Source: Octopus vulgaris (taxonomy: Eukaryota). From it: DNA of 64,000 bases. Below, piece after piece: positions 18,021 to 25,164 of this stretch (its first letter is position 1; each line of letters begins with the position of its first letter). A program made the position numbers and the translations under genes. Under the pieces are notes generated by a model. That model was not told the DNA's origin, made no database searches, and saw only the letters and a program-made list of their open reading frames with translations. The stretch covers positions 104,098,001 to 104,162,000 of the forward strand of contig OX597815.1 of assembly GCA_951406725.2 (NCBI GenBank), given 5' to 3'.

Positions 18021-18172
18021 TATATTATATTAAATTAGAGATAAAACCACTATTAGGCAAATCAAATAGTGAAAAACATAAGCCAATACATAAAATTAAT
18101 TTTAAAATATAAAAGTTAAAAATTTAAAAATAACTTAAATAATTTAAACTTATAAATTTTAAATATATATAT

Positions 18173-18222
<50 letters not shown>

Positions 18223-18390
18223 ATTTTTATATTTATATATTATTTATTTATTAATTTATTTATTTATTTTTTTTATATTTATTTAAATATTTTTTTAAGT
18301 TTTAACTTTTATATTTTTAAATTAATTTTATGTATTGGCTTATGTTTTTCACTATTTGATTTGCCTAATAGTGGTTTTATCTCTAATTTG

Positions 18391-18400
<10 letters not shown>
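18021..18400. repeat. Inverted repeat with ~120-bp arms around a (TA)n-rich spacer
   Basis: attagagataaaaccactattaggcaaatcaaatagtgaaaaacataagccaatac in 18021-18140 is mirrored in 18280-18400. Confidence 0.9.
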
Positions 18401-21242: not shown

Positions 21243-21709
21243 CCCTCGACTATCGCGGGTGTTACGTTCCATAAATTCCCACAGAAATAATTAAAATCTA
21301 AAATATATAAATAATTATCAGCCGCAGAACCCCGGTTATACTGAGGAGTCCATGATATAAAGGGCGGCGAGCTGGCAGAAACGTTAGCACCCTGGGCGAA
21401 ATGAGAAGCCGTATTTCGTCTGCCGTTACGTTCTGAGTTCAAATTCCGCCGAGGTCGACTTTGCCTTTCATCCCATCGGGGTCGATACATTAAGTACCAG
21501 TTACGCACTGGGGTCGATGTAATCGACTTAATCCATTTGTCTGTCCTTGTTTGTCCCCTCTGTATTTAGCCCCTTGTGGGTAGTAAAGAAATAGATATAA
21601 ATTTTTATATATGAACCAGTAAAACCCGCGATGTACTGAGTGCGCGATAGGTGAACTGTTATGTACTGAGTGCATGATAGGTGAACCGCGATGTGACGTG
21701 GGAATACTG
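21241..21709. mobile_element. pogo/Tigger-type MITE interrupted by a SINE A copy
   Basis: Left atccctcgactatcgcgg versus right ccgcgatgtgacgtgggaatactg (reverse complement cagtattcccacgtcacatcgcgg); subterminal ~28-bp tandem repeat at 21627-21693; TA-rich flanks. Confidence 0.6.
21362..21597 (+). mobile_element. SINE family A, full length
   Basis: ggcggcgagctggcagaaacgttagc...gagttcaaattcc...gcctttcatcc...ccccttgtgggtagtaaagaaatag. Confidence 0.9.
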
Positions 21710-21873: not shown

Positions 21874-21936
21874 TAGATTCAGATGCACCAGAATTTTGTA
21901 CGGTGTTATCCATATAAATCCATGGCGTGATTATAA

Positions 21937-22062
21937 TCAAAGTAAGCAACAAGAATATCTTCGGTAATTTGGTACGATAGTTTCACGCTAATGTTTAATA
22001 AAATGGTGTAGCGTGAAACGATCGTACCAAATTACCGAAGATATTCTTGTTGCTTACTTTGA
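21937..22062. repeat. Hairpin with 54-bp arms (one mismatch) containing an HHR 3'-half-like motif
   Basis: 21937-21990 mirrors 22009-22062; GAAACGATCGTA at 22015-22026. Confidence 0.85.
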
Positions 22063-22377: not shown

Positions 22378-22411
<34 letters not shown>

Positions 22412-22677
22412 CAAATAATGAGGGAGATAAATTAATATTAATTTTAATATCAATTTAAAACCAGTAGTCTAGCATACAAAAAATCTGAGAAATCAGAGAA
22501 AATTCTAATATATGTGTATATTGGCAGGGCAAGACTGCTAGGTAGTCGGCCGTATGCTAGAAATAGATCATCAACGATCAAACTACAAAGAAGGTTCTCT
22601 AGAGGAAAAATTCAGCGTACACCAGAACCAAATTTGGCGGGCAGGACAGATGAAAATTTATATAAAAAACAGAATTA

Positions 22678-22754
22678 ATTGCATACTTCGGTTTCGGCCT
22701 TTAACAAAAGAATTATTTATATAATTCAAATGTCCGTGGCCTCATCAGTACAAT
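22678..22754 (-). ncRNA. Type I hammerhead ribozyme, opposite-strand copy
   Basis: Reverse complement AUUGUA-CUGAUGA-GGCC...GGCC-GAAA-CCGAAG-UA-UGCAAU. Confidence 0.8.
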
Positions 22755-23487
22755 CGTTCAGTGTAAATGCAACTTAAAAACTAACCCCAGCTTTCTGTGT
22801 CAAAACAGACACGTGTTTAGTTTTACCGATTACATTAGGTATAAGATTTCAAATGGCTTAGTTCCGGCGCGCTAAAAAATTCCTGAAGCGAAGAACTGCA
22901 GTAAATAATTCACTGCATTAGTGCTTGCATCTAGAGAACGTATTTATTTCAATATTTAAATAATGAGGGAGATAAATTAATATTAATTTTAATATCAATT
23001 TAAAACCAGTAGTCTGGCATACAAAAAATCTGAGAAAACAGAGAAAATTCTAATATATGTGTATATTGGCAGGGCAAGACTGCTAGGTAGTCGGCCGTAT
23101 GCTAGAAATAGATCATCAGCGATCAAACTACAAAGAAAGTTCTCTAGAGGAAAAATCCAGCGAACACCAGAACCAAATTTGGCGGGCAGGACAGATGAAA
23201 ATTTATATAAAAAACAGGATTAATTGCATACCTCGGTTTTAAATTGATATTAAAATTAATATTAATTTATCTCCCTCATAATTTAAATATTGAAATAAAT
23301 ACGTTCTCTAGTAGCAAGCACTAACCGCAGTGAATTATTTACTGCAGTTCTTCGCTTCAGGAATTTTTTAGCGCGCCGGAACTAAGACATTTGAAATCTT
23401 ATACCTAATGTAATCGGTAAAACTAAACACGTGTCTGTTTTGGCACAGGAAGCTGGGGTTAGTTTCAAGTTGCATTTACACTGAACG

Positions 23488-23564
23488 ATTGTACTGATGA
23501 GGCCACGGACATTTGAATTATATAAGTAATTCTTTTGTTAAAGGCCGAAACCGAGGTATGCAAT
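23488..23564 (+). ncRNA. Type I hammerhead ribozyme, canonical core, extended stem II
   Basis: AUUGUA-CUGAUGA-GGCC(38 nt)GGCC-GAAA-CCGAGG-UA-UGCAAU; predicted cleavage after GUA at 23558. Confidence 0.85.
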
Positions 23565-23721
23565 TAATTATGTTTTTTATATAAATTTTCATCTGTCCTG
23601 CCCGCCAAATTTGGTTCTGGTGTTCGCTGAATTTTTCCTCTAGAGAACCTTTTTTTGTAATTTGATCGTTGATGATCTATTTCTAGCATACGGCCGACTA
23701 CCTAGCAGTCTTGCCCTGCCA

Positions 23722-23780
<59 letters not shown>

Positions 23781-25164
23781 ACATATATATATATATATAT
23801 ATATATATTTGTGTGTATGCATACATACATAAACCTTCATAGCATGAAGGGGTGCATTGTGTCAGGAAATGAAAAGCTGAAGTCTTTGAGTTGAAATATT
23901 GAACAATATTTAGTTTCACCATTCGATCTTATGAATTAACTCTCAATGATCTTGTTCCATTTCTCAGAGTTGTTGAATATATGCCCCTATTTTACTGTTC
24001 TTAGGCCTAGTCCATTAAAATTCACTTGCAATTTGACTGTCTGCTTACACCAAAAAAAATTAATATTAATTATTTGACAAAAGGAAACATTTCCTTTACC
24101 ATGCTATTCTTGCACATAATATTGCATTTAGTGATTTTTAAATTAAAAAAATCGCTTAGAATATGTAAATATGAGGAATATATTAAATCCGAGGATTTCT
24201 GTTTGATTTCCTAAACCAACATGTTTTGGATTTCTGTTTTCTATACTAAGAAAAAAGAGCTAGGGATAATATAAAAGAACATTACAAACACAAAACTGAC
24301 TTTTTCCCTCCAGCTGAAATCAATAAAATGCAGTTGAGAAGAAATGATAGATAAACCAAAATTGTAAATAAAGAATTCACAGCTGTAAGTCATAAATCGA
24401 AAGAAGAGTAATAGGAGACAAAGACTGAGCAGGAGAATAGACAAATTATATGAGTCGAAGTAAAGACGAATATCTACGCAAACTCCAATTATAGATTAGA
24501 CAGCAGATACAGAGTAACCTGTTAGATTCTGTGTTGATCTTCCAGACACAAAATAGATAAATTCACAGGGAGTTATATGTTGTTTATATTGCCTACTTAT
24601 TTAATTTTATTCGTCATATATCTCACAAGAAAACAACTATCTCTGTGATTAGGTTTAAAAACAAAGGAATACATTTTAGGTAGCTTAGATATAAAAGTCT
24701 AAAATTATCCTGGCGGACACGGCTTATTAAAAGATGTATGGGAATTAAAGGCAAAGAATACACTATTTGGTCTGTGGAAATCTCCATCTAGGGAGACACT
24801 TGAAACATACAACCAACATATAATGTTCATAACCCGGTCGGTATTGTTTACTGATTCAGTAAGATAATATTTTATAAACTTTTATTTTATTCAATAACTA
24901 GTAATACTATTTTAATTATTTCAGGAAAGTTATTTCTCAATATAATTCTAGTTTTCTATATCAGCCACTATACATGGTTGCACATTCACTTGATACGGTA
25001 ATATAGTCGAATGGTCAAGAAGTTCACTTCGCAGTCACGAGGTCCTGCGCTCGATTACACTGTGGGACATCTTGGGCAAGTGTAATTTTATATAGTCCAG
25101 AGTTGTCTTACGTCTTGCAGGTGAAAATAGGTACAGGGCAGAGCAAATGAGAGATTGCATCTAT

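What the first reader, a model, noticed from the sequence alone, without database searches (positions are those of the whole stretch)
22413..23722. ~545-bp HHR unit in head-to-tail tandem, with a strand switch inside the ribozyme
Seen: unit 1 (22413-22957) is followed by a partial unit 2 that stops at ...gcatacctcggttt, inside HHR stem III and a few nucleotides from the cleavage site. The sequence then switches strand through a GGTTT microhomology near 23236-23240, and the inverted copy itself crosses the head-to-tail junction. Complete HHRs lie on both strands. Inference: the template was a multimeric or circular RNA of about 545 nt, as proposed for retrozymes and tandem Penelope pLTRs.
Basis: partly seen in the sequence, partly recalled or inferred. 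Interest (0 to 1): 0.8.

Follow-up and report, generated by a model that had tools for sequence, protein, structure and literature searches.

The report
Rolling-circle hammerhead retroelement with Penelope ends
This is one copy of a 545-base mobile DNA unit that carries a hammerhead-ribozyme motif and inserts into TA repeats with two fixed ends; repeated laps within one insertion share their mutations, so it is likely copied round and round a circular RNA by a Penelope-type reverse transcriptase, a step long proposed for animal retrozymes.

Summary
In detail: a 545-bp unit, a partial second unit, a 5-nt microhomology inversion 6-11 nt upstream of the hammerhead cut site, and an inverted arm crossing the unit junction. 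It is one insertion of a dispersed, non-coding retroelement family (at least 225 exact unit junctions; 2,730 matches to a lineage-wide 16-mer). Copies are not circularly permuted: 151 of 163 arms end at one of two fixed 3' sites about 95 nt apart, in (TA)n, and inversions pair one end of each kind (41 of 42 classifiable). That is the Penelope-like-element signature (5' truncation, partial tandem, head-to-head inversion, tail), so this is a PLE-mobilised non-LTR retrozyme. The HHR on both strands is only a consequence of the inversion, and the ribozyme is one of several truncation hotspots. The new point: laps and both arms of one insertion share lineage and private variants (sister subfamily 34 of 35 lineage variants concordant), which needs a monomer that is re-multimerised during reverse transcription, most likely a ligated circle. 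Cleavage, circular RNA and the helper PLE are not shown.

The parts
22385..22411 (.). (TA)n target, left flank
   Evidence: sequence; 96 of 98 T ends have a microsatellite within 30 nt vs 10% background
22413..22957 (-). T arm, lap 1: full 545-bp unit (RNA sense is the minus strand); its 3' end at 22413 is fixed site T
22413..22507 (-). 'Tail': about 95 nt between initiation sites T (u1) and A (u96-105); holds a predicted 13-bp terminal hairpin (22428-22457)
   Evidence: end statistics; fold
22508..22517 (-). Site A in unit 1 (TA-like stretch where the second arm of most inversions ends)
   Evidence: 50 of 163 arms end at u96-105
22677..22755 (-). Type I hammerhead motif, 7-bp stem I, long stem II, 2-bp stem III with tetraloop; predicted cut 22684/22683
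22958..23239 (-). T arm, lap 2: 5'-truncated unit u1-282, stops inside the hammerhead 6-11 nt 5' of the cut site
   Evidence: 97.2% to unit 1
23235..23239 (.). Head-to-head inversion junction, 5-nt microhomology GGTTT
   Evidence: 15 of 53 junctions share 4 nt or more vs about 2% expected
23235..23724 (+). A arm: u50->1 (lap 2) then u545->107 (lap 1), ending at site A; alignment runs on into the CA repeat to 23730
   Evidence: 96.4%
23487..23565 (+). Type I hammerhead motif of the A arm; predicted cut 23558/23559
23725..23808 (.). (CA)n/(TA)n target, right flank
   Evidence: sequence; 45 of 50 A ends have a microsatellite within 30 nt

Best explanation
This is a dispersed, non-coding 545-bp retroelement with a hammerhead motif and the insertion pattern of Penelope-like elements, and it is likely reverse-transcribed from a self-cleaved, re-ligated circular monomer by a PLE enzyme acting in trans. 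Shown by the sequences: two fixed 3' ends (T and A, about 95 nt apart), variable 5' ends, (TA)n targets, head-to-head inversions with one T and one A end, arms up to about 3.3 unit lengths, and one haplotype per insertion. Inferred steps: (1) a tandem copy is transcribed and cut by two hammerheads into a monomer, which a host ligase closes; (2) a PLE RT/GIY-YIG protein nicks both strands of a (TA)n target; (3) one nick primes at T and the other at A, on the same molecule or on RNAs of the same source locus (twin priming); (4) each RT runs on round the circle, giving laps with the same haplotype, until it drops off, more often at structure boundaries or at a ribozyme-cut end; (5) the two cDNA ends are joined by microhomology, giving the inversion. 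The window copy is one such event with both arms past one junction.
For: Ends: of 163 arms in 108 young insertions, 101 end at u1-8, 50 at u96-105, 12 elsewhere; 51 two-arm insertions are all head-to-head, 41 T/A, 1 T/T, 0 A/A, 9 with one odd end (binomial 1e-11 for 41 of 42). Same pattern in a subfamily 64% identical: 14 of 25 loci have an inverted arm, all ending at q93-111. Independent priming: 14 of 47 A arms are not contained in their T arm and 7 solo A arms exist. One source per insertion: laps differ 2.6% and opposite arms 2.6% vs 4.0-4.3% between loci, shared minor alleles 42 vs 9.3 and 47 vs 6.2 expected. Sister subfamily, 20 loci: lineage variants concordant across laps 34 of 35, across all segments 49 of 50; 14 arm-level cases (11 variants, 7 insertions) of private variants present in every lap vs about 0.06 by chance; L212 has four private variants in all 4-6 covering segments. 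A linear multimer passes a new mutation to one lap only, so many distinct homogeneous haplotypes need repeated monomer bottlenecks (inference). The cut site is seamless: 92 of 93 contexts have the same length across it. 5' ends are enriched at u260-282: 14 vs 5.3 (p=0.001, AT-adjusted). Hammerhead core invariant and stem I with double changes in 3 of 7 pairs over 15 copies. The unit folds at z -4.3 to -5.5 as a circle in five copies. Young RT + C-terminal GIY-YIG elements inserting in (TA)n exist in the genome.
Against: No cleavage or circular RNA is shown. No helper shares DNA similarity with the unit among 35 GIY-YIG loci. In the window's own (older) subfamily the signal is noisier: lineage variants 28 concordant vs 30 in one lap only; private variants 4 in all laps, 1 in some, 60 in one; and 5 private variants are shared by 2 of 3 segments, one of them in this very insertion (u181, both lap-1 segments but not lap 2), which fits a mixed template, fold-back or gene conversion better than a pure monomer. 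'Private' means private within 20 or 108 sampled insertions, and 8 of the 20 sister loci were picked for having several junctions. Other windows are as enriched for 5' ends as the ribozyme (u106-128: 8 vs 1.7; u29-51: 10 vs 4.3). Antisense folds too (z -1.4 to -7.9) and 1 of 8 control stretches reached -3.05; the alignment fold has almost no covariation energy (-0.03). The first stem II pair is broken in 8 of 13 copies. In the PAc element hammerhead cleavage was dispensable and uncut RNA was the main substrate in vitro (PMC11167929).
Confidence: 0.6

Rival explanations
1. Same PLE-type integration, but the template is an uncut linear head-to-tail transcript of a genomic tandem; laps look alike because masters were young or were homogenised by gene conversion.
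For: 46 of 60 arms pass the cut site; PAc uses unprocessed RNA (PMC11167929); 5 private variants in the main subfamily and 1 in the sister set are shared by only some segments; loci with 2-3 same-strand hammerheads exist as possible masters.
Against: Lap differences hardly recur between insertions (116 differences, 6 kinds recurrent, 3 of them in an alignment-ambiguous stretch); variants are nearly all in every segment or in one (sister set: 16 all, 1 some, 42 one), which conversion would not give; no array longer than 3 junctions among the first 100 of 225.
Confidence: 0.15
2. The template is a ribozyme-cut linear monomer; the RT starts at T or A, reaches the cut 5' end and jumps precisely to the 3' end of the same or a sister monomer, so laps arise without ligation.
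For: Explains the monomer bottleneck and the excess of 5' ends at the cut site; predicted long-range helices would hold the two ends together.
Against: The cut site shows no scars (92 of 93 same length; no deletion at u271/272 in 76 segments), whereas end-to-end jumps by non-LTR RTs usually leave added or lost bases (recalled, R2).
Confidence: 0.13
3. The inverted arm is made by fold-back or self-priming on the first cDNA or an antisense template (the model proposed for rotifer Penelope), not by a second priming event.
For: 33 of 47 A arms are contained in their T arm, including this one; the u181 and u433 variants shared by the two lap-1 segments here fit copying of the first strand; opposite arms are more alike than laps in the sister set (0.9% vs 1.4%).
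Against: 14 of 47 A arms are not contained, L212's A arm is longer than its T arm, solo A arms exist, and palindromic junctions are not enriched (7 vs 4.5, p=0.14).
Confidence: 0.1
4. Local duplication, DNA rearrangement or assembly error.
For: The locus sits in microsatellite-rich DNA.
Against: The segments differ by 3-4%; the same architecture recurs at about 50 other loci and in three subfamilies.
Confidence: 0.01

Closest known systems
Metazoan non-LTR retrozymes (Cervera and de la Pena 2020, PMC7229834; Li, Clavereau and Pollet 2026, 10.64898/2026.07.22.740005)
   Same: Short non-coding AT-rich tandem unit with one type I hammerhead (2-bp stem III, tetraloop), compact predicted fold, co-occurring with autonomous PLEs; 545 bp lies within the 51-972 bp range of the 2026 survey.
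   Different: Mostly dispersed, 5'-truncated 0.3-3 unit insertions rather than arrays; the parts of those papers that I read describe no fixed dual ends, inversions or lap haplotypes, and leave circle-templated reverse transcription as a hypothesis. Expression as a circle is shown there and not here.
EN+ Penelope-like elements, pLTR/tail architecture (Craig 2021 PMC8557442; Arkhipova 2013 PMC3846280)
   Same: 5' truncation, partial tandems, adjacent inverted 5'-truncated copy head to head, optional tail on one end, (TA)n target as in Neptune and Naiad, hammerhead near the 3' end.
   Different: No RT or GIY-YIG ORF; tail about 95 nt instead of 30-40; no DNA similarity to the autonomous families tested.
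Poseidon PAc of Anolis (Frangieh 2024, PMC11167929)
   Same: Two internal reverse-transcription start sites that bound the tail, downstream of a hammerhead; AT-rich target cut on both strands.
   Different: There no difference in start site between the strands was seen in vitro; here the two sites are strictly split between the two arms. There the ribozyme was dispensable.
Non-autonomous Chlamys elements such as MRC1 (PMC8557442)
   Same: Non-autonomous PLE derivatives with multicopy head-to-tail insertions.
   Different: Most Chlamys lack hammerheads and their non-autonomous forms resemble an autonomous family at the 3' end; no such partner was found here.
LINE-1 twin priming (recalled)
   Same: Both target strands prime, products joined head to head by microhomology.
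   Different: In L1 the second site is variable and the arms barely overlap; here it is fixed and 33 of 41 T arms run past the A start.

Membership tests
Type I hammerhead ribozyme | CUGANGA, GAAA and NUH core | tested here: met
   core columns invariant or nearly so in 15 copies of several subfamilies; intact in 67 of 70 young segments
Type I hammerhead ribozyme | Three helices with stem I open | tested here: met
   92% of cells paired, stem I 98% with double changes in 3 of 7 pairs, slid controls 30-40%; structure was drawn from the window copy and rows are related
Type I hammerhead ribozyme | Match to an Rfam hammerhead model at its cut-off | tested here: not met
   none at gathering; 16.2 bits, E=6
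Type I hammerhead ribozyme | Loop I / loop II tertiary contact | not tested
   not examined
Type I hammerhead ribozyme | Self-cleavage | not testable with these tools
   indirect only: 5' ends enriched around the cut site
Non-LTR retrozyme | Short low-GC unit in head-to-tail tandem with a type I HHR | tested here: met
   545/546-bp period; region GC 0.32
Non-LTR retrozyme | No protein-coding capacity | tested here: met
   longest frame inside the element 76 aa; 0 Pfam families for the two longest frames tested; tblastn of PLE ORFs gives nothing meaningful
Non-LTR retrozyme | Two consecutive units with complete HHRs (the 'active' definition) | tested here: inconclusive
   not met at this locus (one HHR per strand); met at L008, L023 and L212, L213, L214, L219, L222, L224, L225
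Non-LTR retrozyme | Expressed as monomer and circular RNA | tested here: inconclusive
   one 573-nt contig in run X2 (only guessed to be RNA) closes on itself as a 543-nt cycle, but the joined form also stands in run X16 and in genomic tandems
Non-LTR retrozyme | No PBS or PPT; target-site duplication when present | not tested
   PBS/PPT not searched; duplications cannot be read in (TA)n
Penelope-like element (insertion signature) | Fixed 3' end, 5' truncation, partial tandem | tested here: met
Penelope-like element (insertion signature) | Adjacent inverted 5'-truncated copy, head to head | tested here: met
   51 of 108 insertions, 0 tail-to-tail
Penelope-like element (insertion signature) | Optional tail at one end (30-40 bp) | tested here: met
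   present, but about 95 nt
Penelope-like element (insertion signature) | Microsatellite target bias | tested here: met
   96 of 98 T ends, 45 of 50 A ends, background 10%
Autonomous Penelope-like element | RT plus GIY-YIG ORF | tested here: not met
Non-autonomous derivative of a known autonomous PLE | Terminal sequence shared with an autonomous family | tested here: not met
   no similarity in 35 GIY-YIG loci; PLE fragments near copies are separate insertions; only the best 150 of 6,136 GIY-YIG candidates were scored

The most novel reading that the evidence does not exclude
The genome holds a fossil record of rolling-circle reverse transcription: a Penelope-type enzyme loads on one ribozyme-made RNA circle at two fixed sites, one for each strand of the target, and runs round it for up to three laps. 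This would be direct genomic evidence for the missing step of the retrozyme life cycle, a rule for how the PLE tail and inverted repeat form, and a 545-nt minimal substrate for testing both.
Probability: 0.45. Interest if true: 0.75.

Novelty: new variant of a known kind. Interest (0 to 1): 0.55.

Why it matters
Animal retrozyme circles are known, but that they are the templates for new insertions, and that PLE enzymes do the work, is stated as a hypothesis in the papers read (PMC7229834; the 2026 preprint says it has limited evidence on the life cycle). PLE tandem/inverted/tail structures are also unexplained (PMC8557442). This family joins the two: a retrozyme-type unit with the full PLE insertion signature, a strict one-site-per-strand rule that holds in three subfamilies, and lap haplotypes that need a monomer-to-multimer copying step. 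It makes both questions testable with a small RNA and with population long reads. The single locus is ordinary for its family.

Tried and rejected
Circular permutation of copies: rejected, ends are fixed. Ambisense ribozyme pair as in viroid-like circles: rejected, only the two arm-sense motifs are found. Long satellite arrays as masters: none longer than 3 junctions among the first 100 of 225 listed. Helper search: GIY-YIG loci, a lineage-wide 16-mer sample, HHR-bearing copies, a distant subfamily: no copy runs on into an ORF. A loose end seen in runs X1 and X5 led to two loci with an old copy in apparently host sequence: dead end. Sequencing runs: no RNA holder listed; runs X1 and X5 cover only a short part of the unit, and contigs cannot show ends or strand. 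Palindromic junctions (self-priming): not enriched. Rfam miRNA hits are hairpin and microsatellite noise. No Pfam family in 12 window ORFs tested of 100 listed. Earlier scan notes: none for this genome.

Full report
Observation. Unit 1 (22413-22957) is followed by u1-282 of a second unit (97.2%), then by an inverted arm u50->1, u545->101 (96.4%) that crosses the unit junction; the arms share GGTTT at 23235-23239. The element is flanked by (TA)n and (CA)n(TA)n. A hammerhead motif lies in each arm in that arm's sense (22677-22755 minus, 23487-23565 plus); a pattern scan of both window strands found these two and one unrelated weak match. Rfam does not call it at its cut-off (16.2 bits, E=6). On 15 copies from several subfamilies the core is conserved, 92% of cells pair, and stem I shows double changes in 3 of 7 pairs, against 30-40% pairing for slid controls; the first stem II pair is broken in 8 of 13. 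The predicted cut is between u272 and u271; the partial unit stops 6-11 nt on its 5' side.

Family. The genome (2.8 Gb, 227 contigs; probably an octopus, my inference from size and microsatellite load, named by no call) holds many copies: 153 exact matches of a 22-mer, 47 of a ribozyme 22-mer, 225 of the head-to-tail junction and 2,730 of a 16-mer kept across subfamilies 63-94% identical; reversed controls gave 0. I clustered hits in the fetched loci into 179 groups, kept 132 that were non-redundant and not cut by a locus edge, and analysed the 108 with at least 90% identity and 60 nt (24 older or short ones dropped). They lie about 2.5% from the column majority. The unit has no coding capacity.

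Ends. In RNA sense, 101 of 163 arms end at u1-8 (site T), 50 at u96-105 (site A) and 12 elsewhere; 5' ends are scattered. 55 insertions have one arm, 51 are head-to-head inversions, 2 are complex, none is tail-to-tail. Of the inversions 41 are T/A, 1 T/T, 0 A/A and 9 have one odd end; in the 75 insertions found by the 22-mer alone it is 35 T/A and 1 T/T. 96 of 98 T ends and 45 of 50 A ends abut microsatellite, against 10% of random window positions; 15 of 53 junctions share 4 nt or more, about 2% expected, measured from BLAST overlaps. A subfamily 64% identical repeats the rule: 14 of 25 loci (chosen for a full T arm) have an inverted arm, all ending at q93-111. This is the PLE signature as described in passages of PMC8557442 and PMC3846280, and the two sites match the two internal RT starts that bound the tail in PAc (PMC11167929, parts 1-2 of 4 read). 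The tail here is about 95 nt. So copies are not circularly permuted, but with internal priming fixed ends say nothing against a circle.

How the inversion forms. 14 of 47 A arms are not contained in their T arm, 7 solo A arms exist, and palindromic junctions are not enriched (7 vs 4.5, p=0.14), so fold-back cannot be the general route; two priming events, one per target strand, fit. A arms are usually short (median 5' end u179), which coincides with the boundary between two predicted RNA domains near u175-182; that link is inference.

Role of the ribozyme. With left-truncation for ascertainment and adjustment for AT content, 14 arms end in u260-282 against 5.3 expected (p=0.001), but 46 of 60 arms pass through, and windows at u106-128 and u29-51 are as enriched. 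The site is seamless in 92 of 93 contexts. So some templates were probably cut there, most were not cut or were re-joined, and the window's junction inside the ribozyme is a modest hotspot event, not the mechanism of the switch.

Template. Laps of one arm and opposite arms of one insertion are closer than copies at different loci (2.6% vs 4.0-4.3%; shared minor alleles 42 vs 9.3 and 47 vs 6.2). In 20 loci of the younger 546-bp sister subfamily (8 picked for several junction matches, 12 single) laps differ 1.4%, arms 0.9%, loci 2.6%. Variants that mark lineages are concordant across laps in 34 of 35 cases and across all segments in 49 of 50; private variants are in every lap in 14 arm-level cases (11 variants, 7 insertions; chance about 0.06) and in one lap in 31. 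L212 has a 3.3-lap A arm and a 1.8-lap T arm with four private variants in all covering segments. A linear multimer hands a new mutation to one lap only, so many different homogeneous haplotypes need a monomer that is multimerised again during copying: a circle, or scar-free end jumps. Against: in the window's older subfamily lineage variants are 28 concordant and 30 in one lap, private ones 4 all, 1 some, 60 one, and 5 private variants are in 2 of 3 segments, one in this insertion. Lap differences seldom recur between insertions. The unit folds at z -4.3 to -5.5 as a circle in five copies, but antisense folds too and one of 8 controls reached -3.05; the alignment fold has 27 of 125 pairs with a double change, a covariation term of -0.03, and one row (L075) that is not homologous in its last 120 columns.

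RNA data. In run X2, only guessed to be RNA, one 573-nt contig covers the unit once and overlaps itself by 30 nt, a closed 543-nt cycle of a related subfamily; the joined form also stands in run X16 and in genomic tandems, so this is a weak hint only.

Helper. [quoted passage not shown] Three such families end in (TA)n and two show partial tandems or inversions. None shares DNA similarity with the unit, so the helper is unnamed.

Comparison and novelty. It works like a non-autonomous PLE and meets the sequence criteria of a non-LTR retrozyme (PMC7229834, parts 2-4 of 6 read; 10.64898/2026.07.22.740005, parts 1-3 of 5 read); circular expression is untested. Eight library searches (listings only unless named above) showed no description of this family, of a one-site-per-arm rule or of lap-haplotype evidence; an octopus repeat annotation (PMC13282606, passages) lists recently active Penelope families and does not mention ribozymes in its main text. 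I read no supplements; that paper's library, file S1 of PMC8557442 and the closed preprint supplements may hold the family, and subscription papers are not searched. Verdict: real, a new variant of a known kind; PLE-mobilised retrozyme about 0.9, circular template about 0.6; interest 0.55.

Noticed in passing
window 21878-22062: Inverted insertion in (TA)n of a second, unrelated hammerhead-bearing family (1,405 first-look candidates). Its junction also falls inside the ribozyme (stem II), and copies show the same asymmetry: one arm stops shortly after the ribozyme, the other carries a tail of up to about 90 nt.
   Followed up: partly
window 18021-18400: Another long inverted repeat (122-nt arms, 94%) next to (TA)n, with very AT-rich filler; the same sequence flanks L011. 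Possibly a third family of this kind.
   Followed up: no
L212 (G000:C3:96536878-96539673): Very young sister-subfamily insertion with six segments at 99-100% identity, 3.3 laps on one arm and 1.8 on the other; best natural construct source for cleavage and circle tests.
   Followed up: partly
L128 430-5724; L138; L139; L131; L134: At least three young RT + C-terminal GIY-YIG families in (TA)n with pLTR-type partial tandems or perfect inversions; one has a 781-aa frame preceded by a second 360-480-aa frame without Pfam match of note, and degenerate hammerhead-like motifs near the 3' end.
   Followed up: partly
L081 2893-3844: Complex insertion with two successive strand switches (u1-502, u34->1, u1-34, u513->131).
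   Followed up: no
L204 3-281 and 1280-1609; L006; L085; L219: Copies nest in the (TA)n flanks of other PLE or family insertions, so these microsatellites collect repeated insertions.
   Followed up: no
L210 3547-5069 and L211 3560-5098: A 96%-identical duplicated region on two contigs carrying an old copy of the element; reads from two organisms' runs cover it.
   Followed up: partly
window 21363-21590: A SINE-like dispersed repeat upstream of the element (recalled resemblance to octopus tRNA-derived SINEs, not tested).
   Followed up: no
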